NCBI GenBank assembly: GCA_943354205.1
Contig: CALRBJ010000004.1
Coordinates: forward strand, 1-36,211
DNA length: 36,211 nt
Direction: 5' to 3'
Source of the DNA: Candidatus Nomurabacteria bacterium
Lineage (GTDB): Bacteria > Patescibacteriota > Minisyncoccia > Phycocordibacterales > UBA9973
In this document: positions 1,884-35,661 of the stretch, piece by piece
Layout: each line of letters starts with the position of its first letter
How positions within the stretch are numbered: position 1 is the stretch's first letter
The notes under the pieces: model-generated
What the model saw: only the letters and a program-made list of their open reading frames with translations
Databases searched by the model: none
What the model was told of the DNA's origin: nothing
Position numbers and translations under genes: made by a program

Positions 1884-4800
1884 GTGAAAAAATATATTTT
1901 CCTGTTTTTATTTTTATTCTCCTTTTTTCTGTTTTCAAATCCAAGGGTATTTGCTGATCTCGCCACCGGCCAAATCACCGAAGATACCACGATAGGTCCA
2001 GAAAACAATCCTTACGATTTTATAAATACCGGTGTCCATATTCATCCTGGGGTCACACTCACTGTTTTACCGGGCGTAGAATTTCTCTCTACTGGTTTTT
2101 ACAATGAAGGCACTTTAAATGCGCTTGGCACTGAATCAAGCAGGATCAATTTCAATAATACAAATTTCTTTACCGCATCTCTGTCTACCACAAATATTAG
2201 CTATGCTGATTTTGATGGAGCAGATGCTTGGTTTGCCAATCAGGGCGCGATGAATGTGGACCACACGAATATAAGCAATGTGGACGCCACAGCTTTTTCT
2301 AGTTGGCACTATCCGGCGACCCTAAATTTAAGTTATGTTAATTTTTCAAACATAAATGGCAGTGCGATAGAGATGTTTCAAGGCATACCCCTTGTGATCG
2401 ATCATTCTACTTTTGATACAGGACAGATTGGTATTCTAATCACAGATGGGTCGAGCCTAGACGCTGATCACTTGCTAATAAAAAATCAAACTATTTCTGG
2501 AATAGAGAGCTTGAATGATGCGCAATTGATGCGTATAAAAAATAGTGAAATTACACAAAACAATGTAGGTATTTATGCAAGCGTAAATGAGCAAGTAGAC
2601 ATTTCTGGCAACAGCATACATGGCAATACTATGGGTGCAAAAGTCGATAGTGCGCCAGACTTGGATTTCTCCGGCAATTGGTGGGGAAGCGCTAGCGGGC
2701 CTACGCATGCGAGCAACCCTGGTGGAACTGGCGATGCTATTTCTGACAATATTATTTATTCAAATTTTCTGACCGAAGATCCATTCAACCCAACCCCGCC
2801 TCCTCCGCCAACCAAAGATCCGGTTATTTTGATTCCGGGGATAATGGGCTCGGAACTAAATAAAAATTACGGAGATTTTGGGAATATTTGGGCGAATATT
2901 ATAGATATATTAACCCCTGGTCCTGATAGTTTCTTGAATGATTTATCTTTGAATTTAGACGGAAGTGAAAATTCTAGTTTCCCGATGACTGTCGGTGATA
3001 TTATTCGTCATACTATGGTTGGTTTTATAGATAATCATGTTTTTGATGGCATGATTTCTACACTCGAATTAGGGGGATATATGGAGGGTACAGATCTTTT
3101 TGTATTTCCTTACGATTGGCGTAAAGATAATTCTGAGTCAGCACTTTTATTAAAAAATAAAATAGAACAAGTACTCGCCCAAACTGGTAAAACGAAAGTA
3201 GACATCATCGCGCACAGCATGGGTGGGTTGGTGGCAAAGAAATATATTGCCGACAATGGCGCAAATAGTATAGACCAATTAATTTTCCTCGGTACCCCAC
3301 ACTTGGGTGCGCCGAAAGCATTTAAAGCTCTAATGTATGGAGATGATATGGGAGGAAATCTTTTTGGCAAAATTCATTTTCTAAATCCAAATAGAGTAAA
3401 AATAATTTCTCAAAATATGCCGGCCACATACCAGCTTTTACCAAGCAGAAAATATGTAGACACAAATGGCAATAAATATGTCACAGATTTGGTCACTCAA
3501 TATTTATCTGGATCTGGCAATAATAACTATCTTTTAAATTATGACGACACAAATACATTTATGATCAACCAAGGTAGAAATTCATCCATGATTCCTCTCG
3601 CCGACAATTTTCACGGAAGTATAGATAGTTTAGATTTGTCTGGTGTAAATACTTACAATTTTGCGGGCTGTGGTAGAGAAACTATCGGTAAAATTACGGC
3701 TACAAAAGAAAAAAGTACTACTTCAAATGGAGTTTCGATAAAAGACGATTACAAATTGAGCTACACAAATGGCGACGACACTGTGCCTTTGCTTTCGTCT
3801 GTCGTGAATTATGGTGAAAAATATTATGTAAAAGGTTTTAGCCACGGTTCTCTGCCGTCGGGCACAGGTGTGCCCGATACAGTGCTGGCTATTCTCTCTG
3901 GCGACAGTATTCCAACTTTTTCAAATATAAGCACGAGTATAAACCCATGTTTTGTTTCAGGCAAAGTCGTCAGTGCGCACAGCCCAGTGTCGCTTGATAT
4001 TTATGATAGCCAAAATTACCATACAGGGTTTGATATAAATGGCGATATTGAATACGGCATAGATGGGGTGTCTTATGATGAAATAGAGGGTGTGAAGTAT
4101 GCTTTCTTGCCGGAGGGCGCGGATTATAGGGTGGTCACTCGTGCTACCGATACCGGCGCATACGATTTTTATGTGGAAGAAATCGCCAGTGACGACACAA
4201 AGACAGCCGAGTATTATTGGAATGAAGTACCGCTCGATACTTTGAATGCAAATGCAGAAATAGATATTACAAGTGGCTCGCAAAATTATGAAATAAAAAT
4301 CGATGAGGATGGGGACAGCGTGTTTGAGAAAACCTTGATGCCAAGCTCTAGTCTTTCCGGGGCGCAATCGCTCGACACGATTCCTCCGCAAACAAGTGTG
4401 ACCACATCCGGGCAAACACTAGCGCTAGATTCTACAGACGATAATTCTGGCGTATTAAAAACAGAATATTCTACTGATAATACAAATTGGAATTTATACA
4501 CAAAATCATTTTCCACTGCTGGCACAGTATATTATTTTTCCACCGACAATGCCGGCAATATCGAGGCTATAAAAAGTGTAGATATGCCTACACCACCCTC
4601 AAACCCACCTTCTTCAGGCGGAGGAGGACATGCAGCTATTATTTTTCCACAAAGCCTAGATACTGTTGCATTTATTCCCCATGACAAGGGGGATAAAGGA
4701 GGTTTGATTAATTTGATTCCGAGCCCAGTATTAAAAAATATCGCATTCAACCCTCCAACCCCAAAACCCACTCAACCAAAAATAACAGAACAAAACCCGA

Positions 4801-4925
4801 CCACAAATACATTATCAGCCAACGCTGGAAGTGCTGGTATCCCGATAAAAGCCATAACGATAGTGGTGTCTGTCGGTATAATCGGTTGGGCGATTATTCT
4901 ATATAGGAAATTTTTGCTAAAATAA
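1884..4925 (+). CDS. Large cell-anchored surface protein: signal peptide, parallel beta-helix, LCAT/lipase-type alpha/beta hydrolase, Ig-like region, C-terminal TM anchor
   Basis: Signal peptide MKKYIFLFLFLFSFFLFSNPRVFA. PbH1/NosD-like repeats ending in NWWGSASGP. Pro linker PTPPPPPT. Lipase motifs PVILIPGIMGSEL, YDWR, nucleophile elbow AHSMGG (about 3210-3227), GDDTVP, SHGS. Module DTIPPQTS...DNAGNIE resembles an Ig-like domain. Pro-rich stalk, then helix IVVSVGIIGWAIILY followed by RKFLLK. Confidence 0.85.
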   Translation: MKKYIFLFLFLFSFFLFSNPRVFADLATGQITEDTTIGPENNPYDFINTGVHIHPGVTLTVLPGVEFLSTGFYNEGTLNALGTESSRINFNNTNFFTASLSTTNISYADFDGADAWFANQGAMNVDHTNISNVDATAFSSWHYPATLNLSYVNFSNINGSAIEMFQGIPLVIDHSTFDTGQIGILITDGSSLDADHLLIKNQTISGIESLNDAQLMRIKNSEITQNNVGIYASVNEQVDISGNSIHGNTMGAKVDSAPDLDFSGNWWGSASGPTHASNPGGTGDAISDNIIYSNFLTEDPFNPTPPPPPTKDPVILIPGIMGSELNKNYGDFGNIWANIIDILTPGPDSFLNDLSLNLDGSENSSFPMTVGDIIRHTMVGFIDNHVFDGMISTLELGGYMEGTDLFVFPYDWRKDNSESALLLKNKIEQVLAQTGKTKVDIIAHSMGGLVAKKYIADNGANSIDQLIFLGTPHLGAPKAFKALMYGDDMGGNLFGKIHFLNPNRVKIISQNMPATYQLLPSRKYVDTNGNKYVTDLVTQYLSGSGNNNYLLNYDDTNTFMINQGRNSSMIPLADNFHGSIDSLDLSGVNTYNFAGCGRETIGKITATKEKSTTSNGVSIKDDYKLSYTNGDDTVPLLSSVVNYGEKYYVKGFSHGSLPSGTGVPDTVLAILSGDSIPTFSNISTSINPCFVSGKVVSAHSPVSLDIYDSQNYHTGFDINGDIEYGIDGVSYDEIEGVKYAFLPEGADYRVVTRATDTGAYDFYVEEIASDDTKTAEYYWNEVPLDTLNANAEIDITSGSQNYEIKIDEDGDSVFEKTLMPSSSLSGAQSLDTIPPQTSVTTSGQTLALDSTDDNSGVLKTEYSTDNTNWNLYTKSFSTAGTVYYFSTDNAGNIEAIKSVDMPTPPSNPPSSGGGGHAAIIFPQSLDTVAFIPHDKGDKGGLINLIPSPVLKNIAFNPPTPKPTQPKITEQNPTTNTLSANAGSAGIPIKAITIVVSVGIIGWAIILYRKFLLK

Positions 4926-4929
4926 TAAT

Positions 4930-5284: not shown

Positions 5285-6940
5285 ATGACGCAAAATGAGG
5301 CATTGGACATATTGAAGACCGGAGCGAATGTATTCCTCACGGGCGAGCCGGGGGCGGGGAAAACGCACACTATTCGCGAATATGTGGCCTATTTGCGCGC
5401 TCACGGCATCGAGCCCTCTATCACAGCATCCTCGGGTATTGCCGCCACGCATATTCACGGGCAGACCATTCATTCTTGGGCCGGTATCGGCATAAAAAAT
5501 CATTTGAGCGATTACGATTTGGACGCGATGAGCAGTAAAGAATATTTGGTAAAAAAAATATCTCGCGCGACGGTTTTGATAATCGATGAAATTTCTATGC
5601 TTGGCGCCGGCACTTTGCAAATGGTAGATCAGGTTTGCCGTGCGATAAGGAACAACGACAGCGCATTTGGCGGGCTCCAAGTAGTGCTCGTCGGCGACTT
5701 TTTCCAGCTCCCGCCGATTTCAAGCTACGGTTCCAATTCCGAATTTGCGTATGAAAGCCCAGCTTGGAAATCTTTGTCTTTAATCACCTGCTATATCACC
5801 GAGCAACACCGCCAGGAGGACGGCGATTTACTCGCAGTGCTCTCGGCCATCCGCCGAAACGAAGTAGAAGAAATGCATTTTGAAAAACTGCAGTCGCGTA
5901 TCACTACAAAAGAGGCTAGTCCCGAAGGTATCACGCGTTTGTTTACCAAAAATGTTTCTGTCGATGCGCTCAACGACGAATCTTTAAAAAAAATTGTTGG
6001 CTTGGATTATGAATACGAGATGCAATCACAGGGTAAAGTTTCGATGGTGGAAGCTTTAAAAAAAGGATGCCTTTCGCCGGAAGTTTTGGTTTTAAAAAAA
6101 GATAGCGTGGTCATGTGTACTAAAAACAATATGAATGCTGGGTTTGTAAACGGCACATTGGGCAGGGTTGTCGATTTTCAAAAGGGAACTGATTATCCGA
6201 TCATCCAAACTCGCGACGGTCGCACCCTCACTATCGAACCTATGGAGTGGGTCGTCGAGGAGGACGGCAAAATCCGCGCGCGCATCACCCAAATACCTCT
6301 TCGCTTGGCCTGGGCGATCACCGTGCACAAGAGCCAAGGCATGTCGCTCGACTCCGCCGTCATGGACCTCTCGGACGTATTCGAATATGGGCAGGGCTAT
6401 GTGGCGCTCTCTCGCGTGCGCACTCTCTCGGGCATACATCTTTTTGGCTTAAATCAAAAATCTCTGCAAGTGCATCCCGAGGTAGCCTCGGTCGACGCGC
6501 ATTTTCGCCAAGTTTCCGACAAAGCCATGCATTCGTTCAGAGCTCTTGAAGAAAATGAATTGAAAAATATGCATGCCAATTTTATCCGCGCTTGCGGGGG
6601 TAATTTAGTGCCGGTGAAAAATGTTAAACCCGGTAAAAAAATATCCACCCAAGAAAAAACCTTGGCTCTTTTAGAAGCGGGCTTTACTATTTCAGGCATC
6701 GCCAAGGAGCGCGATCTAAACATCGGCACCATTATCGACCATGTGGATTATTTGGTAAAAAATGGCTCGTTTTCAAAAGAATCAGCGCTCAATCTATGCG
6801 ACCCTCGGCTCAAGCTCTCTTTGCCGATCATAAACAAAGCCTTTGATAAAAAGGGCACTATCGCGCTGGCTCCTGTGTTTTCGCACCTAAAAGGCGTTTA
6901 TTCATACGACGAGCTAAAGCTGGCCCGGGTGTTTTATTAG
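5285..6940 (+). CDS. PIF1/RecD-family ATP-dependent DNA helicase with C-terminal helix-turn-helix
   Basis: Walker A GEPGAGKTH, LIIDEISM, VGDFFQLPP, TVHKSQGMSLD, YVALSRVR. The C-terminal ISTQEKTLALLEAGFTISGIAKERDLNIGTIIDHVDYL resembles the HTH tail common in bacterial PIF1-like helicases. Confidence 0.9.
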   Translation: MTQNEALDILKTGANVFLTGEPGAGKTHTIREYVAYLRAHGIEPSITASSGIAATHIHGQTIHSWAGIGIKNHLSDYDLDAMSSKEYLVKKISRATVLIIDEISMLGAGTLQMVDQVCRAIRNNDSAFGGLQVVLVGDFFQLPPISSYGSNSEFAYESPAWKSLSLITCYITEQHRQEDGDLLAVLSAIRRNEVEEMHFEKLQSRITTKEASPEGITRLFTKNVSVDALNDESLKKIVGLDYEYEMQSQGKVSMVEALKKGCLSPEVLVLKKDSVVMCTKNNMNAGFVNGTLGRVVDFQKGTDYPIIQTRDGRTLTIEPMEWVVEEDGKIRARITQIPLRLAWAITVHKSQGMSLDSAVMDLSDVFEYGQGYVALSRVRTLSGIHLFGLNQKSLQVHPEVASVDAHFRQVSDKAMHSFRALEENELKNMHANFIRACGGNLVPVKNVKPGKKISTQEKTLALLEAGFTISGIAKERDLNIGTIIDHVDYLVKNGSFSKESALNLCDPRLKLSLPIINKAFDKKGTIALAPVFSHLKGVYSYDELKLARVFY

Positions 6941-7020: not shown

Positions 7021-7275
7021 ATGGCGGAAAAAACATCTGCATTTATGAAACCAATGACTTTGAGTCCAGAGCTCGAAGCAGTAGTCGGAAAGGGCCCAAT
7101 GCCTCGCTCCGAAGTAGTGAAGGCTCTTTGGGTATATATAAAGAAGAATAATCTTCAAGACCCAAAGGCAAAGCGCAATATCGATGCCGACGCAAAGCTA
7201 AAGGAAGTATTCGGTGGCAAAGCGCGCGTAGACATGTTTGAAATGACAAAGCTCGTTTCAAAACACCTTTCGTAA
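7021..7275 (+). CDS. SWIB/MDM2-domain protein
   Basis: 84 aa. LSPELEAVVGKGPMPRSEVVKALWVYIKKNNLQDPKAKRNIDADAKLKEVFG matches the SWIB domain pattern. Confidence 0.85.
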   Translation: MAEKTSAFMKPMTLSPELEAVVGKGPMPRSEVVKALWVYIKKNNLQDPKAKRNIDADAKLKEVFGGKARVDMFEMTKLVSKHLS

Positions 7276-7286
7276 TTTTAAATTTT

Positions 7287-7349
7287 ATGGCAAAAGGAAA
7301 CAATAGTCATAGAAAAGAAACAAAGAAGCCGAAAAAGGCGAAAAAATAG
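7287..7349 (+). CDS. Candidate 20-aa lysine-rich micropeptide MAKGNNSHRKETKKPKKAKK
   Basis: ATG 11 nt after the SWIB stop. TAG at 7347, followed directly by the terminator at 7359. No homology evidence. Confidence 0.2.
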   Translation: MAKGNNSHRKETKKPKKAKK

Positions 7350-7358
7350 TTTTTTTAC

Positions 7359-7390
7359 AAAAATCCAGATCGAGTCTGGATTTTTGTTTT
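7359..7390 (+). terminator. Rho-independent terminator
   Basis: aaaaatccaga-tcgag-tctggattttt followed by a T tract. Confidence 0.8.
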
Positions 7391-7484
7391 ATTAGGACAA
7401 AAAGAGCATCTAGGGTAGAATGAGACCCGTATTTAGATACGGAAACATCGTCGAAGTTTCTCCCCCAATAATCATAAAAATCAC

Positions 7485-7691
7485 ATGAACCAAGGAACAA
7501 TCAAGACTTTGATGCAAGATGGAAAGACTTTTGGATTTATTTCTCGCGAAGGCGAGTCCAAAGACCTTTTCTTTCATGCAAACGAGCTTTCAGGTGTTGC
7601 ATACGGAGATTTGAAAGTCGGCGATGCCGTTACTTTTGAAATCGTAGATGGCGAAAAAGGCCCATCAGCTACAAAGGTATCTCGCGCATAG
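7485..7691 (+). CDS. cspA: Cold-shock domain protein (CspA family)
   Basis: GTIKTLMQDGKTFGFISREG (RNP1-like FGFI) and DLFFHANEL (RNP2-like). 68 aa. Candidate -10 TAGAAT at 7416-7421 gives a 5' UTR of about 60 nt with two small hairpins. Confidence 0.93.
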   Translation: MNQGTIKTLMQDGKTFGFISREGESKDLFFHANELSGVAYGDLKVGDAVTFEIVDGEKGPSATKVSRA

Positions 7692-7699
7692 TAGTGCGA

Positions 7700-7732
7700 C
7701 AAAAATCCGCCGTTGTGGCGGATTTTTGTTTT
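7700..7732 (+). terminator. Rho-independent terminator after csp
   Basis: aaaaatccgcc-gttgt-ggcggattttt. Confidence 0.85.
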
Positions 7733-7753
7733 ATAGACTAAACTATAATTTTA

Positions 7754-7762
7754 TGTTAAAAT
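7754..7762 (+). promoter_or_regulatory. Extended -10 TGTTAAAAT, 7 nt before ATG 7770 (leaderless-type)
   Basis: The same 9-mer recurs at 24089(+), 19849(-) and 29390(-), each 6-7 nt from an ATG. Confidence 0.6.
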
Positions 7763-7769
7763 ACTTTGT

Positions 7770-9056
7770 ATGAAAACCAAACTCGAAACTAATTTAGAGA
7801 CCGATTACGATGTTATCGTGGTTGGTGGCGGCGCATCAGGCATGATGGCGGCTTATACAGCCGCACTGCGCGATTTGCGAGTGTTGGTAATAGACAAGAA
7901 TAAAAGACTTGGTGAAAAGCTCTCGATCACTGGTGGTGGGCGATGCAACATCACCAATGCCGAGGAGGATGTACACACATTTTTAAAAAATTACGGCAAA
8001 GCAAATAAATTTTTATATTCGCCATTCTCCCAATTCGGCGTGAAAGACACTTTTGATTTTTTTGAATCACATGGTTTACCGCTCGTGGTCGAAGCTCGCA
8101 AGCGCGCTTTTCCAGAAACCATGAGCGCTGAATCGGTGCGCACTCTCATGGAAAAACTTTTAAAGAAAAGGGGAGTAGTGGTCAAACTCGGCCGACCGGT
8201 TAAAAAGATAATGCGCGATGAAAACGGAGTGACTGGTGTAGTCGTCGATGGCACCACCTATATTGCAAAGACCTATATCCTCGCCACTGGGGGCCTCTCG
8301 CATGCCGAGACGGGTTCTTCTGGCGATGGCTTCGGCTGGCTCTCCGATTTGGGGCATACCGTGGCCGAGCCGACCCCGTCTATCGTGCCCCTTTCTGTAA
8401 AAGATTCCTGGGTGCACAAGCTATCGGGTGTATCGCTCTCGTTTATGAAAATAACCTTTTTTGAAAATGCCCGCCCGGATGACCCGGTCGGACGGGGCGT
8501 GAAAAAATTCCAACGCAAAGGCAAAATTTTATTTACTCACTTTGGCCTCTCCGGCCCACTTATTTTAAATAGCGCGCACGCTGTAGCTGATTTATTTCAC
8601 GCCGGTGTGGTAACGGCCACGATAGACATGTATCCCGACACCGACATTGGCACCCTGGAATCTAAAATCATAAAAATATTTGATGCGAACAAAAATAAAA
8701 TTTTCAAAAGCGTGATAAAAGAGTGCGTGCCCGAGGGCATGACCGAAGCCGTGATTTCCAATTCTAAAATAGACAGCGCCAAAAAAGTGCACAGCATCAC
8801 CCGCGAAGAGCGCCGAGCATTTGTAGAGCTTTTGAAAGCCATGCCGCTCACTATCACCGGCCTCATGGGCTACGACCGCGCGGTTATCGCGGATGGGGGA
8901 GTATCGCTCTCCGAAGTAGATATGCGCACGATGCGAAGCCTCAAGTGCCCAAATTTGGCTATCACCGGCGACCTACTACATGTAAATCGCCCATCGGGAG
9001 GCTTTTCGCTCCAGCTGTGCTGGACTTCAGGCTATGTAGCGGGCATGCATGCCTAG
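7770..9056 (+). CDS. HI0933/BaiN-family NAD(P)/FAD-dependent oxidoreductase
   Basis: YDVIVVGGGASGMMAA dinucleotide fold, ITGGGRCNITN, LFTHFGLSGP. Carries in-frame repeat copy A at 8460-8507. Confidence 0.9.
   Translation: MKTKLETNLETDYDVIVVGGGASGMMAAYTAALRDLRVLVIDKNKRLGEKLSITGGGRCNITNAEEDVHTFLKNYGKANKFLYSPFSQFGVKDTFDFFESHGLPLVVEARKRAFPETMSAESVRTLMEKLLKKRGVVVKLGRPVKKIMRDENGVTGVVVDGTTYIAKTYILATGGLSHAETGSSGDGFGWLSDLGHTVAEPTPSIVPLSVKDSWVHKLSGVSLSFMKITFFENARPDDPVGRGVKKFQRKGKILFTHFGLSGPLILNSAHAVADLFHAGVVTATIDMYPDTDIGTLESKIIKIFDANKNKIFKSVIKECVPEGMTEAVISNSKIDSAKKVHSITREERRAFVELLKAMPLTITGLMGYDRAVIADGGVSLSEVDMRTMRSLKCPNLAITGDLLHVNRPSGGFSLQLCWTSGYVAGMHA
8460..8507 (+). repeat. GC-rich palindromic in-frame module, copy A (encodes FENARPDDPVGRGVKK)
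   Basis: 38/40 nt identical to 22327-22366 in the same codon phase. Imperfect hairpin gcccgcccgg...ccggtcggacggggc. Confidence 0.9.
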
Positions 9057-9065
9057 TGCTATACT
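9057..9065 (+). promoter_or_regulatory. Extended -10 TGCTATACT, 6 nt before ATG 9072
   Basis: Matches the window-wide grammar of TGnTAnAnT plus 6-7 nt plus ATG. Confidence 0.6.
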
Positions 9066-9071
9066 AAGCGC

Positions 9072-9437
9072 ATGATTATAATATTTTTTATCGGGTGAGT
9101 TTTACTAGGAGGTTACTTTATCTATTCCGGCTACAACCATTTTAAAAAATTGGATGCCATGACTGCGTATGCAAAGATGAAGGGTGTTAAACATCCCAAA
9201 ATTGCGACTCAAATCACCGGGGGTATGCTTCTTTTGGGTGGAGCTCTCTTGGTTATAGGGCTCAAAATGAAAATCGGGGTCATTATTCTATCTATATTTA
9301 TGATCGGTGTTTCGTTCATGATGCATGCTTTTTGGAAAATAAAAGATCCGGCATTGCAGGCAACTGAAAAAATGGCTTTCTTGAAAAACATGGCTCTCTT
9401 GGGCGCGCTTCTGATGCTTTTCCACACGTTGTGGTAA
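9072..9437 (+). CDS. DoxX-family membrane protein interrupted by an in-frame TGA at 9096-9098 (recoded codon, or a very recent pseudogene)
   Basis: MIIIFFIG-TGA-VLLGGYFIYSGYNHFKKLDAMTAYAKMKGV... is continuous with track ORF 9150-9437. DoxX-like HAFWKIKDP...FLKNMALLGALL. No in-frame ATG, GTG or TTG between 9099 and 9149. Confidence 0.6.
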
Positions 9438-10060
9438 TCGCCCCGATGCAATTTACAAAAGAAGAAAAATCTTTATTCAAAAAATTAAACACACCGGGCA
9501 AGGTGCAGGATTTTTTGAATGCTATTCCGGCCAATTTTGAGAGCGATGGTTGGGCTTCTTTTAAATCGCCCCTCCTGGTGCTTCGCACACACTCCGCGCA
9601 CTGTTTTGAAGGCGCGGTTTTGGGGGCATATATACTTTCGCTTCATGGATATAAACCACTCGTGCTCCACTTAAAAGCCAGAAAGCCTGATTGGGACCAT
9701 GTGGTCGCTCCGTTCAAAGAAAATGGCTATTGGGGCGCGCTTTCAAAAACAAACCATGCCGTGTTGCGCTATCGCGAACCGGTTTACAAAAATATTCGTG
9801 AGCTCGTGATGTCCTATTTTCACGAATATTTTACTGATGATGGTCGTAAAAATTTAGAAAGTTATACCGATCCGCTAAATCTAAATATTTTTTCTGATAA
9901 TTGGGCCGAGAGCGGAGACCCACTTTGGGGTATAGACGAAGCGTTGGATGAAATGAAACACCACAGTATAATTCCTAAAAAAAGCTTGAAAAACAAGCGT
10001 TTAGCAGACAAAATAGAAATAGAAGCGGGTAAACTCGTGGAATGGAAAAAGAAGAAATAA
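9431..10060 (+). CDS. Hypothetical protein, possible transglutaminase/papain-fold Cys-His enzyme
   Basis: 209-aa ORF; the start could instead be ATG 9446. Candidate catalytic AHCFEGAVLGAY and DWDHVVAP. The family assignment is only a guess. Confidence 0.65.
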   Translation: MVIAPMQFTKEEKSLFKKLNTPGKVQDFLNAIPANFESDGWASFKSPLLVLRTHSAHCFEGAVLGAYILSLHGYKPLVLHLKARKPDWDHVVAPFKENGYWGALSKTNHAVLRYREPVYKNIRELVMSYFHEYFTDDGRKNLESYTDPLNLNIFSDNWAESGDPLWGIDEALDEMKHHSIIPKKSLKNKRLADKIEIEAGKLVEWKKKK

Positions 10061-10075
10061 TATGGTAATCTAAGT

Positions 10076-10105
10076 GCGTCGCGCCTCAATGGACGATTGC
10101 GCGAC
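10076..10105. promoter_or_regulatory. GC-rich inverted repeat gtcgcgc-N14-gcgcgac just upstream of dnaJ
   Basis: 7-bp perfect arms at 10078-10084 and 10099-10105, 20 nt before ATG 10125. No T tract. dnaJ lacks the TGnTAnAAT promoter seen on its neighbours. Confidence 0.3.
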
Positions 10106-10124
10106 ATGATTTCGGCTAAATCAC

Positions 10125-11207
10125 ATGGCAAAAGACTATTACAAAACATTGGGCGTAGAAAAAAATGCTTCAAAAGAAGATATAAAAAAAGCTTTTCACA
10201 AGCTCGCGCACAAATATCACCCAGATAAAAACAAAGGTGATGATGCGAAATTTAAAGAAGTGAACGAAGCCTACCAAACTCTCTCGGACGAGCAAAAGCG
10301 CGCGAGCTACGACCAGTTTGGCGAAGCCGGCGCGCAAGGATTCCCGGGCGGAGGCGCGGGCTTTGGCGGTTTTGACTTTTCTGGTTTTCAAAATGGCGGC
10401 GCCCAAGGTTTCGACATGGGCGATCTTGGCGATATTTTTTCTGATTTCTTTTCCGGCGGTATGGGCGGGGGCCGAGCACAGGCACGCCGAGGCCGAGACA
10501 TTTCTACCGAAATTTCTATCCCATTTTCCGAATCCATTTTCGGCGTCACTCGCAAAATTTTAATTACAAAAGTTTCTACCTGCGAGACCTGTACCGGTAG
10601 TGGCGCCAAACCAGGCACAAAAGAAAAAACATGTACGAAATGCAACGGCAAGGGAAGCATCCGTGAAAACCGCCGCACCATTTTCGGCACGGTAGCCACC
10701 ACTGCCGTGTGCGATGTGTGCCACGGCTATGGTAAAGTGCCGGAAGAAAAGTGCCCTACATGCAAAGGCCATGGCGTGCTTCGCAAAGAGGAAGAAATTT
10801 CTCTCAATATTCCTGCCGGCATAAACAATGGTGAGATGATTCGTATGCCTGCCATGGGCGAAGCTATTGCGCACGGGCAAACCGGCGATTTGTATATAAA
10901 GGTGAATGTGGGTCGGCATCCAGTGTTTACCCGCGAGGGCAACAATTTGGTGATGGATTTGAATATCAAGCTCTCCGATGCCTTGCTCGGTGCTGAATAC
11001 ACGATTGAAACCTTGGATGGAAATATTTCTGTAAAAATTCCCGAAGGCGTTTCGCCAAATGAAATCCTGCGCGTGCGCGAACGCGGAGTGCCATCATCTC
11101 GTGGCAAACGCGGGGACCTCCTCATAAAAATCCACCTCAAACTGCCCCAAAAACTCTCCCGCGACGCCCGCAAAATTATTGAGGATTTAAAAAAGGAGGG
11201 GATATAG
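10125..11207 (+). CDS. dnaJ: Co-chaperone DnaJ
   Basis: J domain DYYKTLGV...HPDKN, a G/F-rich region and four CxxCxGxG zinc-finger repeats. Confidence 0.95.
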
Positions 11208-11230
11208 GAGTAGCTATATTACGTTTGGTA

Positions 11231-11239
11231 TGTTATAAA
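11231..11239 (+). promoter_or_regulatory. Extended -10 TGTTATAAA, 6 nt before ATG 11246
   Basis: Fits the leaderless spacing and supports ATG 11246 over the track's TTG 11225. Confidence 0.5.
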
Positions 11240-11245
11240 TTTCTT

Positions 11246-12052
11246 ATGAAAAAGTATCTTTTAATGATAGTTTTGACTGTTATCGTTGCGCCATCGGTTG
11301 CTCTTGCTTCTTGGTGGAATCCATTTTCATGGAAGATTTTTTCGCATAAAAAAGACGTTGTACCACAGACTAATCAAGTTGTAGTCGATCAAATAATAAC
11401 GACTTCTCCTATTGAGAAAAAAAATAAAAATACTAAACAAGAAACGTCGAATATTCCTATAATTAAAGAAAAAGAACCTGCGCCTACGCCTGTTACTGAT
11501 GTTTGTAATAATATTGGTGGAATTCAAACTACCGTTCCTGCTGGATGGTATTTATCTGAAAGTAATATATGTAAAATTATTTCCCATGATAATCAAACTA
11601 ATATTCCAATCGCAGAAATACCAGCACCGTTAATTTCACCAGGGTTAACAAAATTTACAAATAAGGATAATATTTCTTATGCATACTTTATAATTGATAA
11701 TACTTCCGATAAATTACTTGAAATAAATGGTATAAACTTTAATTTGGTTAGTAATGATCTAAGGGTTTCCGGTTATGATCTTGCTCTCATTTCAACTGAA
11801 GGCAAGGAAAATTCTTCCTTCATCCCTCTGGGTAGTTACCATAACTCTGAGTATTCATATAATTTTGATTATCCAGTATTTGTTAAATCAAACTCGAGTG
11901 TAAATTTATTTGTTGCCTTTAAATCATTAAGTGGAACTTTGGAATTTAATAAAACTTACGTGGAAGCAACAATAACTAAAATAAAATCTAATACACCTAC
12001 CGAATTTAAATACTTACCAGTTAGTAGCAAGGCAATATATGTTCATCAATAA
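11246..12052 (+). CDS. Secreted hypothetical protein
   Basis: Signal peptide MKKYLLMIVLTVIVAPSVALA followed by SWWNPFSW. Lys/Thr-rich linker. Markedly AT-rich. No recognisable domain. Confidence 0.7.
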   Translation: MKKYLLMIVLTVIVAPSVALASWWNPFSWKIFSHKKDVVPQTNQVVVDQIITTSPIEKKNKNTKQETSNIPIIKEKEPAPTPVTDVCNNIGGIQTTVPAGWYLSESNICKIISHDNQTNIPIAEIPAPLISPGLTKFTNKDNISYAYFIIDNTSDKLLEINGINFNLVSNDLRVSGYDLALISTEGKENSSFIPLGSYHNSEYSYNFDYPVFVKSNSSVNLFVAFKSLSGTLEFNKTYVEATITKIKSNTPTEFKYLPVSSKAIYVHQ

Positions 12053-12119
12053 ATAAATTTATTCTACTAGTAATATTAGTGAAAACAACTTGTGCGGGAA
12101 TCAAAAAAATAATATAAGA

Positions 12120-12860
12120 TTATTTCGCACCAGATAAGTATTCACATAATCTATACCCTAAATTAGTTAGCCTAAATTTTCCACCATTTCTAAAAACCTC
12201 AACTTCATCGTATTTATCCTCAGGTAAGGGATCAAGTGTAAGTAGCATCTTTTTTACCTTTTTTGAATATCTTGGTAATATTAGAGATAATTTAATGAGA
12301 TTTTCCTCTCTATTAGTTATTAATTCTGGAATTTTGTGGCCAATTTGGAGAGCCACAGAAGAAGCCCATATTTCTGGGTTGTCGGTCCGGATATTTTCTT
12401 GTGTAACAATTTCACTCTGATTTGAAGCTATATCATATGAAGCTTTCAGGATTAGTATATCTTGTCCTGTTAATTGTTTACAAATTTGCATAAATTGATA
12501 TGCTAAAGATTGTTCCTGCTCCGTGGAATCTTTTTTAATTGAGCGAAAGAATATAGATTTCATAGCTTTTAGAGTTTCTTCATCAGGATTTTCTTCGTCA
12601 ATAAATTTAAGGATCTCGTAAAATGAAGAACAATCTGAAACACTAACTTCATCTTTTATTTCTTTGTTTTTATTTTTTTGTATGCATTCTCTCACGAACT
12701 CAGAGATTTTTTTAGTAACAATAGCTACGCCAACACTAGCGATAGCCATCCTGGGGTCAGTAATTGTTGTTGGAGTAAGAAAGCCCGTTAGGTCTGGCAA
12801 TAAAGACAACCCTGTTTCTTTTAAACTACCATTTTTGATTTTTATTTTTTTGTTTACCAT
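12120..12860 (-). CDS. Hypothetical 246-aa protein, faint resemblance to Abi-alpha/DUF4393-type proteins
   Basis: Clean ORF, markedly AT-rich and convergent with the preceding gene. It lacks the local leaderless promoter grammar. The segment EETLKAMKSIFF...FMQICKQLTGQDILILK recalls, from memory only, the DUF4393 pattern. Confidence 0.6.
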   Translation of the reverse strand: MVNKKIKIKNGSLKETGLSLLPDLTGFLTPTTITDPRMAIASVGVAIVTKKISEFVRECIQKNKNKEIKDEVSVSDCSSFYEILKFIDEENPDEETLKAMKSIFFRSIKKDSTEQEQSLAYQFMQICKQLTGQDILILKASYDIASNQSEIVTQENIRTDNPEIWASSVALQIGHKIPELITNREENLIKLSLILPRYSKKVKKMLLTLDPLPEDKYDEVEVFRNGGKFRLTNLGYRLCEYLSGAK

Positions 12861-12973
12861 AAATTATGTAATCCCTGTGTCACAAATCACTAAGTCTGCT
12901 CGCATGATTACACGCTGTGCGGTCTAAGTGTTCGCGACCCCGGCTCGGCTTGCTTCGCAATATGCCTGCGCCT

Positions 12974-13030
12974 TCACAAAAGCGAAAAAGATTAAAGCAG
13001 TTTAATCTTTTTGCGCTCCCGCTTTTGTGA
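12974..13030 (-). terminator. Long interrupted hairpin in the tRNA-Glu 3' trailer
   Basis: Outer arms tcacaaaagcg (12974-12984) and cgcttttgtga (13020-13030). Inner arms aaaaagattaaa and tttaatcttttt around loop gcag. The outer arm overlaps the last 3 nt of the tRNA. Confidence 0.4.
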
Positions 13031-13099
13031 CTCTACCGGGAATCGAACCCGGATTTAAAGCTTGAGAAGCTTCCGTCCTAACCGTTAGACGATAGAGCC
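13028..13099 (-). tRNA. tRNA-Glu (anticodon CUC), no encoded CCA
   Basis: Reverse complement is GGCTCTATCGTCTAACGGTTAGGACGGAAGCTTCTCAAGCTTTAAATCCGGGTTCGATTCCCGGTAGAGTCA. Cloverleaf with a 7-bp acceptor (one G-U), D arm GTCT/GGAC, anticodon loop TTCTCAA and T arm CCGGG-TTCGATT-CCCGG. Confidence 0.9.
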
Positions 13100-13114
13100 T
13101 AAAAATACCCAAAT

Positions 13115-13123
13115 ATAATAACA
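13115..13123 (-). promoter_or_regulatory. Extended -10 (TGTTATTAT on the minus strand) for tRNA-Glu
   Basis: Plus-strand ataataaca. Predicted transcription start is 8-9 nt before the mature 5' end. Confidence 0.45.
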
Positions 13124-13144
13124 CTTTTTTAAAAATTCGCAATT

Positions 13145-13153
13145 TGGTATAAT
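13145..13153 (+). promoter_or_regulatory. Extended -10 TGGTATAAT, 11 nt before ATG 13165
   Basis: Exact TGnTATAAT, divergent from the tRNA promoter. Confidence 0.55.
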
Positions 13154-13164
13154 TTCTGTATTAC

Positions 13165-13701
13165 ATGATTTACTTCATACGACATGGGGAGAGCGAGGCG
13201 AATGCGCGAAAGGTTTTTGCCGGCCAGCGGGATGATTCGTTGCTCACGGAAACCGGTCGGGAGCAAGCGCGGGCCACAGCTGAGGAAATTAAAAAAGAAG
13301 GGATTAGAATTGACAGAATAGTTTCTTCGCCACAAAAAAGAACTATGGAAACCGCTCAAATTGTGGCAAAAGAATTGGGTTACGATATTGAAAAAATAAT
13401 TCCCGATCCGCGAGTGATGGAATATGACATGGGTGATATTACTGGAACGCCGTGGCATGAAGTTTCATCTCAACAAATGATTTCTGGCGGCGGTGCAGAA
13501 AATCCTCAATATTTCTTAAAACGAATCTCTAGTTGTGTTGAAGATTTACAAAAGTTAGACGGCAATACACTTCTTTCTTCTCATGGAGGCGTTGGTAGGG
13601 TTTTGGAATCTATAAAGCAGGGAGTAAAAGTAGAAAATTTTTACGATATTCCGGTATATAAAAATGCTACCGTTATAGAGCTTGATTGGATAGAAAAATA
13701 A
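13165..13701 (+). CDS. Histidine phosphatase family protein (phosphoglycerate-mutase-like)
   Basis: IYFIRHGESEAN catalytic RHG motif, TETGREQA and a downstream SSHGG. Confidence 0.88.
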   Translation: MIYFIRHGESEANARKVFAGQRDDSLLTETGREQARATAEEIKKEGIRIDRIVSSPQKRTMETAQIVAKELGYDIEKIIPDPRVMEYDMGDITGTPWHEVSSQQMISGGGAENPQYFLKRISSCVEDLQKLDGNTLLSSHGGVGRVLESIKQGVKVENFYDIPVYKNATVIELDWIEK

Positions 13702-13705
13702 AAAA

Positions 13706-13732
13706 CCCTCTTACGATTTTATTCGAAGAGGG
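13706..13732 (+). terminator. Possible terminator hairpin
   Basis: ccctctt-N13-aagaggg. The T tract is weak. Confidence 0.4.
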
Positions 13733-13802
13733 AGCTTTAGTTCTGCATTGACGGACTAATTTTAGAAGTGTATATTCAAAATATACCAAAGCTCTTTGAA
13801 TT

Positions 13803-14213
13803 ATGAAAAATAAAATAAAACGATACGCTTGGCTCGCCGCGCTCTTCTCGATGATTTTCCCAGCATCTCTTTGCTCGCCTGGAGAAATAAAAACTTTGTT
13901 CGCTTACTTTTGGTTGATAGGAATAGCCAATAGTTCGTTCCTTTGTGGGGTTGTTTTCTTCATTTTAAAAGAAATCGGGGAAGAAAAAATAACAAAGCCG
14001 AGATTTAGAAAAAATATACTAAGGATGATCAGAGCCCAATGCATTCTTGCCGGCACATCCTATTTAGCATTGATTTTTCTTTTTCCTCGAGCGCTCGAGC
14101 TTGGTTTCTTTCTAGGTGAGATTGTGTTGGTGGCAACTATCACTGGACCATTTTGGATTGGGTACCTAGCTGCACATTCAGTACTAAAAATTTTAGAAAA
14201 ATCTCCCGCTTAG
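13803..14213 (+). CDS. Hypothetical 4-TM membrane protein
   Basis: 136-aa ORF with hydrophobic helices. No recognisable family. Confidence 0.6.
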   Translation: MKNKIKRYAWLAALFSMIFPASLCSPGEIKTLFAYFWLIGIANSSFLCGVVFFILKEIGEEKITKPRFRKNILRMIRAQCILAGTSYLALIFLFPRALELGFFLGEIVLVATITGPFWIGYLAAHSVLKILEKSPA

Positions 14214-14228
14214 AAAAAAATTCCAACC

Positions 14229-14255
14229 AAACCGGACAATGTTCCGGTTTTTTTA
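14229..14255. terminator. Terminator hairpin aaaccgga-caatgt-tccggttt plus T tract
   Basis: 8-bp stem followed by ttttt, lying between convergent genes. Confidence 0.75.
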
Positions 14256-14291
14256 TTTGTCTACTGTAAAAACGATCGTTTTCTGGGGAAA

Positions 14292-14325
14292 TAAAAAACC
14301 CTTCGCGTTTTTAAGACGGAAGGGG
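14292..14325 (-). terminator. Minus-strand terminator after the 106-aa gene
   Basis: Minus strand reads cccttc-N14-gaaggg followed by tttttt. Confidence 0.6.
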
Positions 14326-14357
14326 AGGTTGGCCATAGTCCTCGGCGTAGTGATATT

Positions 14358-14678
14358 TTAATTTTCAATTTCCTTGCCCGAGAAATCATGGGGCCCACTA
14401 AAGAACACCACTTTCGGGTCGTCATCAATAACGAGGAGAGCGTATCTTTCATCGTCGAGCTTGCCGTACAGACTCAAAATATTGTCTTTGTGGCTTTGTA
14501 TTCTCTCACAATGAAAATCATACTCGTGTTTTTCTTCTTCTAAAACGACGACTTTTCCTTCGATAATATCATCATCGGAGGCTCTGAAATTTTGAGGTTC
14601 CCATTCTGGCGGGAATCCTAGAAGTTTGTGGGGCATTTTTTTAGCTGGTTTAAGGGACAAAAATAAGAACCGATCCAT
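14358..14678 (-). CDS. Hypothetical 106-aa protein downstream of cysS
   Basis: ORF in the same orientation as corA-cysS. No recognisable motifs. The start is uncertain because there is an internal Met at MPHKLL. Confidence 0.5.
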   Translation of the reverse strand: MDRFLFLSLKPAKKMPHKLLGFPPEWEPQNFRASDDDIIEGKVVVLEEEKHEYDFHCERIQSHKDNILSLYGKLDDERYALLVIDDDPKVVFFSGPHDFSGKEIEN

Positions 14679-24099: not shown

Positions 24100-24103
24100 A
24101 AGT

Positions 24104-29404: not shown

Positions 29405-29413
29405 TGCTATAAT
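29405..29413 (+). promoter_or_regulatory. Extended -10 TGCTATAAT, 6 nt before ATG 29420
   Basis: tgctataat-tgcgat-ATG. Confidence 0.65.
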
Positions 29414-29419
29414 TGCGAT

Positions 29420-30625: not shown

Positions 30626-30634
30626 TGGTATAAT
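30626..30634 (+). promoter_or_regulatory. Extended -10 TGGTATAAT, 6 nt before ATG 30641
   Basis: tggtataat-caccaa-ATG. Confidence 0.65.
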
Positions 30635-30640
30635 CACCAA

Positions 30641-34683: not shown

Positions 34684-35661
34684 ATGTCTTTAATAGATAA
34701 ACTATCCGAATTAAAAAAGAATCACCAAACCTCGTATCTCGCGGAGAGTTATGAGAAACTTTTGCGTGAGGAAGAAGAAGTACGAAAGATGCTGGAGAGC
34801 GATGGCTCACTCCACGATATGGCTGCTGAAGAATTAGCGAATATTGAAACTCAAAAAGAGGGAATCGAAACACAAATAAAAAGCATCGAGGATAAAGAAA
34901 AAGAGCAAGAAGAATTTCCAAACGAAGTCGTGCTCGAAGTGCGCGCTGGCGCGGGGGGCGATGAGGCCTCGCTCTTTGCCTGGCAAATAGCTCACATGTA
35001 CGAGCGCTATGCCGAAGTGCAAAAATGGAATTGGAAAATAAACTACGAATCGACCAACGAAATCGGCGGATACAAAGAAGCCTCATTTGAAATAAAGGGC
35101 ACTGATGTGTACAAAAAACTTCGCTACGAAACAGGTGTGCACCGCGTGCAAAGAATTCCTGGCACTGAAAAAAATGGACGCATCCATACTTCGACTGCCT
35201 CTGTCGCCATCCTGCCAATCAAAAAGAAAAATACTTTTGTCATAAATCCAACTGATTTGGAAATGGAGTACTCGCGCTCGGGTGGAGCCGGCGGACAAAA
35301 TGTGAACAAGGTAGAAACCGCCGTACGCCTGATCCACAAACCGACTGGCCTCGATGTGCGCTGCACCAGCGAACGCTCTCAGCTGGCGAACCGTGAAAAA
35401 GCGATGCTTATTTTGACCGCCAAGATTCAACAAATGAAAGACGAAGAAGAAGCCAAGAAATATTCGGCTGATCGCAAGGGGCAAATCGGCACGGGGGATC
35501 GCAGCGAAAAAATCCGCACTTACAATTATCCTCAAGACCGCGTGACCGACCACCGCATAAAGCAGTCTTGGTCCAATATTCCTTCCATTATGGAGGGAAG
35601 GATAGACAAAATCATTGAAGCGCTAGAATCTGGAACTGTCGGCGATTCAGATGAAGAGTAG
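34684..35661 (+). CDS. prfA: Peptide chain release factor 1
   Basis: GGQ motif [20 protein letters not shown]1-type tripeptide P-x-T (RIPGTE). The ATG directly abuts the rpmE TAG. Confidence 0.95.

What the first reader, a model, noticed from the sequence alone, without database searches (positions are those of the whole stretch)
9057..9152. In-frame TGA eight codons into a DoxX-family gene whose ATG is pinned by the local promoter grammar
ATG 9072 lies exactly 6 nt after TGCTATACT (9057-9065). At least ten other genes here use the same spacing. Translation from it gives MIIIFFIG, then TGA (9096-9098), then VLLGGYFIYSGYNHFKKLDAMTAYAKMKGV..., in frame with the track ORF 9150-9437.

The segment after the TGA already looks like the first DoxX helix (G..F..SG..HF). 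It contains no in-frame ATG, GTG or TTG until 9150. A normal 4-TM DoxX protein therefore requires decoding the TGA; starting at 9150 or 9159 would delete the first helix. Together with the absence of TGA stops in the window, this raises the possibility that TGA is read as a sense codon (Trp or Gly in the known code-4 and code-25 precedents) or is read through.
Basis: partly seen in the sequence, partly recalled or inferred. Interest (0 to 1): 0.72.

Follow-up and report, generated by a model that had tools for sequence, protein, structure and literature searches.

The report
Premature TGA in a DoxX gene
A small membrane-protein gene in an uncultured Patescibacteria genome has a real TGA where every relative has arginine; this is most likely an ordinary disabling mutation, not a changed genetic code, though this lineage never uses TGA to end genes.

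Summary
ATG 9072 lies 6 nt after TGCTATACT, TGA 9096-9098 is in frame, and the DoxX reading frame continues to TAA 9437. No start codon occurs before 9150.

The Trp/Gly recoding reading is not supported. In 100 homologues the column under the TGA is Arg in 92 and never Trp or Gly. The syntenic sister species has AGA there.

The TGA is also present in a second, separately built assembly, so it is not an assembly slip. No other in-frame TGA occurs in about 11,000 window codons. None occurs in about 80,000 aligned ortholog residues from relatives. All 106 Trp codons are TGG.

TGA stops are absent from the window (0 of 39 genes). They are also absent from its four-species clade (0 of about 100 gene observations). 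TGA use is patchy across Minisyncoccia, and other lineages in the RF1-defined sample end conserved genes with TGA.

A co-occurring MAG carries an analogous AAG→TAG nonsense variant, so such lesions are ordinary in this dataset.

Best reading: a recent AGA/CGA→TGA mutation that disables or severely weakens DoxX. I could not test whether RF2 is present. A leaky, unassigned UGA therefore remains a live minority alternative.

The parts
9057..9065 (+). Extended -10 promoter element TGCTATACT, directly after the TAG stop (9054-9056) of the upstream HI0933-like flavoprotein gene
   Evidence: The same TGNTANNNT element ends 6 nt before the ATG at 9 genes in the window, and no Shine-Dalgarno motifs are present. 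This is the layout of leaderless mRNAs.
9072..9437 (+). DoxX-family gene (121 codons) interrupted at codon 9 by TGA
   Evidence: translation. (PF07681, 43.3 bits). (100 homologues; the closest is 79% identical, 121 aa and uninterrupted). (conserved gene order HI0933-like, DoxX, hyp205, DnaJ in the sister species).
9096..9098 (+). In-frame TGA occupying the near-invariant Arg codon of the G-R motif in the first DoxX helix
   Evidence: the column is R 92, Q 3, E 1, K 1, gap 3; the sister species has AGA; a more distant homologue has CGT; the identical TGA is present in ENA assembly ERZ27280317 contig k141_25348.
9159..9437 (+). Residual ORF as called by gene finders (92 aa from ATG 9159; TTG 9150 gives 95 aa). 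It lacks the first transmembrane helix.
   Evidence: P0002 is the window's own 92-aa call; no -10 element and no Shine-Dalgarno motif precede 9150 or 9159.
34684..35661 (+). prfA, encoding release factor 1 (reads UAA and UAG). It is the only class-I release factor gene in the window.
   Evidence: PCRF and RF-1 domains. NCBIfam prfA scores 376-377 bits against 226 bits for prfB. The PxT motif (PGT) is present and there is no SPF motif.

Best explanation
The TGA is a genuine single-base substitution. It turns the hallmark arginine codon 9 of a DoxX gene (AGA in the sister species; CGA is also possible as the ancestral codon) into TGA.

The gene is transcribed as a leaderless mRNA from the TGCTATACT -10 box, and ribosomes start at ATG 9072. 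After eight codons they meet UGA and most of them stop.

The rest of the frame has no promoter, no ribosome-binding site and no start codon for 54 nt. Full-length DoxX is therefore lost or strongly reduced.

The lesion is recent: the downstream 113 codons are still intact and still look selected. This is an ordinary nonsense (or near-nonsense) allele, in a lineage that has purged TGA from the ends of its genes. It is not a regular sense codon of an alternative code.

Shown: the substitution, its position at the conserved Arg, its reproducibility in a second assembly, and its uniqueness. Inferred: termination at the UGA, which assumes that RF2 is present or that decoding is inefficient.
For: - The TGA aligns to Arg in 92 of 100 homologues and never to Trp or Gly.
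- The syntenic sister species (about 77% nucleotide identity) has AGA at that codon.
- Neither a +1 nor a -1 shift at the site rescues the frame. Both run into TAG within four codons (read).
- It is the only in-frame TGA in 11,071 window codons. All 106 Trp codons are TGG.
- No TGA lies inside about 80,000 aligned ortholog residues in about 35 related loci or in called genes of clade members.
- Other Minisyncoccia in the RF1-defined sample do terminate conserved genes with TGA: transketolase in L141, PfkB in L132, FAD oxidase in L131, and 5 of 22 genes in L179, whose RF1 is 81% identical.
- A control for the base rate: the co-occurring MAG GCA_943359425.1 has AAG→TAG at codon 52 of an inositol monophosphatase gene. 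That gene is intact in a 99.93%-identical ENA assembly.
- DoxX dN against the sister species is 0.148, within the range of its neighbours (0.04-0.175). This shows long purifying selection and hence a recent lesion.
- There is no hairpin after the TGA (z = +1.74) and no Rfam hit.
Against: - No TGA stop occurs in 39 window genes, in 7 further genes of the same species, or in the three other clade species (0 of about 100 gene observations; GC 37-51%). This is what an RF2-less lineage would look like.
- TAG makes up 36% of window stops, which is unusually high.
- The promoter, the start codon and the whole downstream frame are intact, and the TGA is present in a second assembly. The allele is therefore at least common in the population.
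- UGA→Trp reassignment with prfB loss has been reported twice within the same class, Minisyncoccia (bioRxiv 10.64898/2026.05.24.727570; PMC13092985).
- RF2 presence could not be tested.
Confidence: 0.6

Rival explanations
1. UGA is an unassigned codon in this clade. RF2 has been lost and TGA has vanished from gene ends, but no dedicated tRNA exists yet. Ribosomes pause at the DoxX UGA, and near-cognate tRNAs (Trp-CCA, Arg-NCG via G·U at the first position, or Cys) insert an amino acid. A mixture of full-length DoxX variants is therefore still made, and the allele is tolerated.
For: - There are 0 TGA stops in about 100 gene observations across four species of the clade, spanning GC 37-51%.
- TAG is used freely.
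- The DoxX promoter, start and downstream frame are intact, and the allele is reproduced in a second assembly.
- Published models place an 'unassigned codon' stage before UGA capture, and two captures occurred in this class (PMC13462651 discussion; 10.64898/2026.05.24.727570).
Against: - RF2 absence is not shown.
- The gTranslate preprint reports prfB in all but one of the code-11 relatives of the recoded Minisyncoccia it displays.
- Zero TGA stops in 20 genes is common in this class, next to lineages that clearly use TGA.
- If UGA were cheaply readable, TGG→TGA changes should have appeared under AT pressure. None is seen in 106 Trp codons or in about 80,000 aligned residues.
- The site needs Arg, which near-cognate decoding would supply only as a minor product.
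Confidence: 0.22
2. UGA is a regular sense codon in this organism. It would either mean Arg, which would be a new genetic code read by a tRNA-Arg with anticodon UCA, or Trp/Gly as in translation tables 4 and 25.
For: - The aligned residue is Arg in 92% of homologues, so Arg would restore a normal DoxX.
- No TGA stops are seen.
- Tables 4 and 25 both occur in Patescibacteria.
Against: - It rests on a single instance in 11,071 codons. None of 386 Arg, 106 Trp or 822 Gly codons is TGA.
- No in-frame TGA occurs in orthologues of relatives.
- Trp and Gly never occur in the aligned column.
- No tRNA-UCA is present in the window or in any fetched locus.
- No UGA→Arg code is known (my knowledge of the NCBI translation tables).
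Confidence: 0.07
3. The TGA is an error of sequencing, consensus calling or assembly. The organism really has AGA or CGA.
For: MAG consensus sequences do contain minor-allele or erroneous bases. The related MAG L182 differs from its ENA counterpart by a nonsense change.
Against: A separately built ENA assembly (ERZ27280317 contig k141_25348) is identical to the window over 5.8 kb, including the TGA. It differs elsewhere by a 1-nt indel and a divergent 200-nt end, so it is not a copy of the same contig. Substitution errors are rare in short-read assemblies (general knowledge).
Confidence: 0.04
4. The gene now works as a shortened protein. After the 8-codon mini-ORF ends, ribosomes re-initiate at TTG 9150 or ATG 9159 and make a 92-95 aa, three-helix DoxX fragment.
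For: The 92-aa ORF is intact and is what gene callers report. Re-initiation by 70S ribosomes after short ORFs is known (general knowledge).
Against: - 97 of 100 homologues retain the first helix with its G-R motif.
- No Shine-Dalgarno motif or -10 element precedes 9150 or 9159.
- This genome relies on 5'-terminal AUGs.
- The Pfam domain starts at the TGA.
Confidence: 0.05

Closest known systems
Nonsense-mutation pseudogene or null allele in a bacterial population (for example the AAG→TAG inositol monophosphatase variant in MAG GCA_943359425.1, found here)
   Same: A single base change converts a conserved sense codon into a stop triplet in an otherwise intact, syntenic gene. The ancestral codon is still visible in the sister species. 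There are no other lesions.
   Different: The triplet created is TGA. This clade never uses TGA as a terminator in the roughly 100 genes sampled, so whether it terminates efficiently is unproven.
UGA→Trp reassignment (translation table 4) in Minisyncoccia family JAKLIH01 and genus GCA-2747955 (bioRxiv 10.64898/2026.05.24.727570; PMC13092985)
   Same: Same bacterial class. UGA is absent from the ends of coding sequences. Genomes are small with low to moderate GC.
   Different: Those genomes have many UGA codons aligned to Trp, usually a tRNA-Trp(UCA), and no prfB. Here there is one UGA, it aligns to Arg, no TGG has been replaced, and prfB and tRNA status are unknown.
UGA→Gly reassignment (translation table 25) in Absconditabacterales and BD1-5 (GTDB class JAEDAM01)
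   Same: Same phylum. There are no UGA stops.
   Different: UGA is a frequent Gly codon in those lineages. Here the aligned column never holds Gly, and none of 822 Gly codons is TGA.
'Codon capture' and 'unassigned codon' intermediates in models of stop-codon reassignment (discussed in PMC13462651)
   Same: UGA has disappeared from gene ends across a clade, and a rare UGA has reappeared inside a gene.
   Different: Loss of RF2 is not demonstrated. The reappearance is at an Arg site, not at the Trp site expected from near-cognate tRNA-Trp decoding.

Membership tests
DoxX family (Pfam PF07681) | Match to the family HMM above the curated gathering score | tested here: met
   43.3 bits against a cutoff of 23.6, residues 10-86 on profile positions 7-85 of 85; 100 homologues, the best at 79% identity.
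DoxX family (Pfam PF07681) | N-terminal helix with the conserved G-R motif, encoded without interruption | tested here: not met
   Gly8 is present, but the Arg9 codon is TGA. Arg occupies this column in 92 of 100 homologues.
Translation table 4 (UGA = Trp) | In-frame UGA codons align to Trp in conserved proteins | tested here: not met
   no Trp in the aligned column; 106 TGG and 0 TGA at Trp codons; no TGA within about 80,000 aligned residues of relatives.
Translation table 4 or 25 | UGA is not used as a terminator | tested here: met
   0 of 39 genes in the window; 0 in clade members. This holds only for the roughly 36 kb + 6 kb of this species and about 45 kb of relatives that I could see.
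Translation table 4 or 25 | Loss of prfB (RF2) | not testable with these tools
   Only prfA is in the window. No RF2-like hit occurs in any fetched locus, but these loci cover a small fraction of each genome.
Translation table 4 or 25 | A tRNA with anticodon UCA | not testable with these tools
   The window holds only tRNA-Glu(CTC). ARAGORN found no UCA or Trp tRNA among 108 tRNAs in all fetched loci. The whole genomes were not available.
Translation table 25 (UGA = Gly) | In-frame UGA codons align to Gly | tested here: not met
   no Gly in the aligned column; none of 822 Gly codons is TGA.
Bacterial selenoprotein gene | A SECIS hairpin immediately 3' of the UGA | tested here: not met
   MFE -10.3 kcal/mol against a shuffle mean of -15.5 (z = +1.74); no Rfam match in 8950-9500 at E ≤ 1.
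Nonsense-mutation pseudogene | A stop triplet at a position that is a conserved sense codon in orthologues, one substitution away from the orthologous codon | tested here: met
   AGA in the sister species against TGA here. Arg in 92 of 100 homologues.
Nonsense-mutation pseudogene | The triplet is recognised as a stop in this organism | not testable with these tools
   RF2 status is unknown. Related Minisyncoccia lineages outside the clade use TGA stops. The clade itself shows none.
Nonsense-mutation pseudogene | Further decay (frameshifts, extra stops, raised dN) | tested here: not met
   the downstream 113 codons are intact; dN is 0.148, within the range of the neighbours. This is compatible only with a recent lesion.
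Leaderless mRNA gene | A -10 element 6-7 nt upstream of an ATG, with no Shine-Dalgarno sequence | tested here: met
   TGCTATACT ends 6 nt before ATG 9072. The same layout occurs at 10 other genes.

The most novel reading that the evidence does not exclude
A family-level Minisyncoccia clade has lost RF2 and driven UGA extinct as a stop. The DoxX UGA is then the first re-appearance of the codon, and it is decoded as arginine, either by a tRNA-Arg(UCA) or by efficient G·U first-position decoding. That would be the start of a UGA→Arg code, which has no known precedent.
Probability: 0.04. Interest if true: 0.9.

Novelty: already known. Interest (0 to 1): 0.3.

Why it matters
As a nonsense allele in one accessory membrane-protein gene, it matters little.

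The context has modest value. This clade of Minisyncoccia shows no TGA stops in about 100 genes, across genomes of 37-51% GC. It belongs to a class in which UGA→Trp capture has been reported twice in 2026.

If whole-genome checks showed that prfB is missing, the clade would be a natural example of the 'unassigned UGA' stage that reassignment models predict but rarely catch. The DoxX codon would then show what happens when the codon reappears.

A practical point: gene callers silently report a 92-aa, N-terminally truncated 'DoxX' here.

Tried and rejected
- **Selenocysteine.** There is no hairpin after the TGA and no Rfam hit. Rejected.
- **Frameshift rescue.** Both +1 and -1 frames hit TAG within four codons (read). 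Rejected.
- **AGGAGG at 9107-9112 as a ribosome-binding site for an ATC start at 9120.** No other gene in the window uses a Shine-Dalgarno motif, and ATC starts are very rare. I treat it as a chance by-product of the Gly-Gly codons GGA GGT.
- **Coding-density comparison, table 11 against table 4, on relatives.** It looked suggestive for some loci. This proved to be an artefact of spurious off-frame ORF extension. The homology-anchored scan found no in-frame TGA.
- **Search for RF2 and tRNA-UCA in all fetched loci.** Nothing was found. The RF-like gene in L027 is another RF1.
- **GTDB representative scan with CysS.** There is no close relative; the best hit is 52% identical. It therefore gave no named genus.
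- **The 500-nt 'gap' at 7275-7770.** I tested it for an MFS pseudogene remnant and found none. It holds a cold-shock protein gene (7485-7691).
- **The apparent disruption of the PRPP synthetase gene in L093.** It is a run of N, not a stop.
- **Literature search for the MAG accessions.** Nothing was found.
- **Contig walking along the 157-kb and 229-kb relatives' contigs.** This was not possible, because only proteins returned by homology searches can be looked up.

Full report
**Observation**

- TGCTATACT lies at 9057-9065, directly after the TAG stop of the upstream HI0933-like flavoprotein gene.
- ATG is at 9072. Eight codons (MIIIFFIG) follow, then TGA at 9096-9098.
- The same frame continues as VLLGGYFIYSGYNHFKK... 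to TAA 9435-9437.
- No ATG, GTG or TTG occurs between the TGA and TTG 9150 or ATG 9159.

With the TGA filled in, Pfam DoxX (PF07681) matches residues 10-86 to profile positions 7-85 of 85. The score is 43.3 bits against a gathering score of 23.6. The domain therefore begins at the interrupted codon.

The promoter grammar is real.
- An extended -10 (TGNTANNNT) ends exactly 6 nt before the ATG at nine genes including this one.
- It ends 7 nt before the ATG at two more genes.
- No gene has a usable Shine-Dalgarno motif.

This is the layout of leaderless mRNAs, so ATG 9072 is a well-supported start.

**What the TGA replaces**

A search of 5.8 billion proteins returned 100 DoxX homologues. Aligned to the window protein, the column under the TGA holds R 92, Q 3, E 1, K 1 and gap 3. 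It holds no Trp and no Gly. The preceding Gly is present in 96 of 100.

Seventy-three of 97 homologues have exactly eight residues before this Arg, so ATG 9072 is the orthologous start.

The closest homologue (P0001) is 79% identical, 121 aa long and uninterrupted. It comes from a sister species assembled in about ten Logan runs, with the same gene order: HI0933-like, DoxX, hyp205, DnaJ. Its DNA reads GGG AGA GTG where the window reads GGG TGA GTT. A more distant homologue uses CGT.

The window uses both AGA (47 times) and CGA (50 times) for Arg. The TGA is therefore one substitution away from an Arg codon.

**Is it an error?**

The window's own 92-aa call (P0002) is also encoded on ENA contig ERZ27280317:k141_25348. 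That contig is identical to the window from 8793 to 14635, including the TGA. It then differs by a 1-nt indel at 14636 and by 25 mismatches packed into 14716-14908.

It is therefore a separate assembly of the same population, not a copy of the same contig. The TGA is a real and common allele. It is not evidence for two long-diverged strains.

**Is TGA decoded as a sense codon here?**

- In 38 window genes (11,071 codons) there is no other in-frame TGA. All 106 Trp codons are TGG, and none of 822 Gly or 386 Arg codons is TGA.
- I ran a homology-anchored scan, using tblastn of all window proteins against relatives with TGA translated. It found no TGA inside any real alignment in about 35 loci, covering about 80,000 aligned residues.
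- Called genes in clade members contain none either.
- There is no SECIS-like hairpin (z = +1.74) and no Rfam hit.
- Frameshifting does not rescue the frame.
- No tRNA-UCA occurs in the window or in 108 tRNAs from all fetched loci.

**Stop-codon usage and lineage**

The window encodes RF1 (prfA, 34684-35661). It scores 377 bits on the NCBIfam prfA model against 226 bits on prfB, and carries the PGT motif. RF1 homologues place the organism in Minisyncoccia/Paceibacterota within Patescibacteria.

The window's 39 genes end in TAA (25), TAG (14) and TGA (0).

Further sequence shows the same pattern.

| Source | RF1 identity to window | GC | TGA stops |
|---|---|---|---|
| L177, NCBI GCA_943354155.1, apparently the same species | not applicable | 39% | 0 of 7 |
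| L001 and L089, sister species | 92% | 37% | 0 of about 20 |
| L095 | 82% | 38% | 0 of 23 |
| L182 | 82% | 51% | 0 of 15 |

In a neighbour-joining tree of four markers these four species form one clade. That is 0 TGA stops in about 100 gene observations.

The wider picture weakens the inference from this absence.
- Among 40-odd Minisyncoccia loci from JGI metagenomes, many show 0 of 14-22 TGA stops.
- Others show 5 of 19 to 5 of 23.
- The two kinds are interleaved in the tree.

Genuine TGA terminators of conserved genes exist in L141 (transketolase), L132 (PfkB), L131 (FAD oxidase) and L179. L179 has 5 TGA stops in 22 genes and its RF1 is 81% identical to the window's. Against a class mean near 5%, 0 of 39 is unremarkable (p ≈ 0.14), whereas 0 of 100 is notable (p ≈ 0.006).

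RF2 presence or absence in the clade could not be tested. No fetched locus carries an RF2-like gene, but the loci cover only small parts of the genomes.

**A control for the base rate**

The co-occurring clade member GCA_943359425.1 (L182) has AAG→TAG at codon 52 of an inositol monophosphatase gene. That gene is intact in a 99.93%-identical ENA assembly.

TAG is an abundant terminator in these genomes, so this is an ordinary nonsense variant. Such lesions therefore occur at roughly one per 15-40 genes in these MAGs.

**Age of the lesion**

Against the sister species, synonymous sites are saturated. DoxX dN is 0.148, inside the range of neighbouring genes (0.04-0.175). The gene was under purifying selection for most of the divergence, and the downstream 113 codons are intact. 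The TGA is therefore recent, or tolerated.

**Interpretation**

The most economical reading is a recent point mutation at the hallmark Arg codon. It truncates translation of a leaderless mRNA after eight codons. The remaining 92-aa ORF has no promoter or ribosome-binding site, and it lacks the helix that 97% of homologues keep. I give this reading 0.6.

The main rival (0.22) is that the clade has lost RF2 and UGA is unassigned and leaky, so some full-length protein is still made. This fits the clade-wide absence of TGA stops and the published precedents in the same class. UGA→Trp is reported in family JAKLIH01 and genus GCA-2747955 (bioRxiv 10.64898/2026.05.24.727570; PMC13092985). Even under this rival the codon behaves as a costly lesion, because no TGG→TGA change has accumulated anywhere.

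Other readings are less likely.
- Regular sense decoding (Arg as a new code, or Trp/Gly): about 0.07.
- A functional truncated protein: about 0.05.
- Sequencing or assembly error: about 0.04.

**Novelty and verdict**

The feature is real, but as best explained it is an ordinary nonsense allele. The specific code-4 or code-25 suggestion is contradicted by the aligned residue.

The one point worth following up is cheap. Check the whole MAGs of this TGA-free clade for prfB, for tRNA(UCA) and for further in-frame TGAs.

Noticed in passing
window, whole (for example 4915-4929, 17672-17686 on the minus strand, 24089-24103, 29405-29419, 30626-30640): Leaderless gene organisation is pervasive. An extended -10 box (TGNTANNNT) ends 6-7 nt before the ATG at 11 of 37 gene starts examined. 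Plain TATAAT-like boxes sit at similar distances at several more. No Shine-Dalgarno motif lies within 15 nt of any start.
   Followed up: partly
L097-L176, L179, L185, L186 (Minisyncoccia loci around prfA): TGA stop usage is strikingly patchy between related lineages. Many loci have 0 of 14-22 genes ending in TGA, while related lineages have 5 of 19 to 5 of 23. TAG is generally at least as frequent as TGA. This could reflect repeated weakening or loss of RF2 in this class.
   Followed up: partly
L182:6820 (NCBI GCA_943359425.1, CALRHN010000005.1) against L183:715: An AAG→TAG nonsense variant at codon 52 of an inositol monophosphatase gene in the MAG. The gene is intact in the ENA assembly of the same population, which is 99.93% identical.
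   Followed up: yes
window 14636 and 14716-14908 against L088: The second assembly differs from the window by a 1-nt indel near the 5' end of the hypothetical gene 14358-14678 (minus strand), which changes its N-terminus. It also has 25 substitutions clustered in the last 200 nt of cysS. This suggests strain mixture or recombination at that contig end.
   Followed up: partly
window 7485-7691 (+): A 68-aa cold-shock protein gene (MNQGTIKTLMQDGKTFGFISREG...) ending in TAG lies in the apparent gap between the SWIB and HI0933-like genes. It was missed by the ≥80-aa ORF list. The sister species has a 412-aa MFS transporter gene at this position instead (L003:322-1560).
   Followed up: partly
window 12120-12860 (-), next to tRNA-Glu(CTC) at 13027-13099: A gene matching Abi_alpha (abortive infection; weak, E = 3.8e-6, below the gathering score) sits beside the tRNA gene. 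No counterpart is called in the sister species (L001:4324-4751 is a shorter uncalled stretch). This may be a small defence-gene insertion.
   Followed up: no
window 1884-4925, 5285-6940, 7021-7275: Proteins with domains more typical of eukaryotes: a 1013-aa protein with an LCAT/PGAP1-like lipase domain, a PIF1-type helicase, and a stand-alone SWIB/MDM2 domain protein.
   Followed up: no
L182:10982-11934 (also L183:4877-5829): A stretch of about 950 nt with no open reading frame lies between prfA and the RRM-protein gene. In the window and the other clade members these two genes are only 140-190 nt apart. Rfam gives only a sub-threshold hit (Thr_leader, 27 bits against a gathering score of 55).
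   Followed up: partly
window 9040-9071 against L001:1318-1358: The sister species has about 25 extra AT-rich bases between its -10 box (GGTATAAT) and the DoxX ATG. The same gene is therefore leaderless in the window species and has a short leader in its sister.
   Followed up: no
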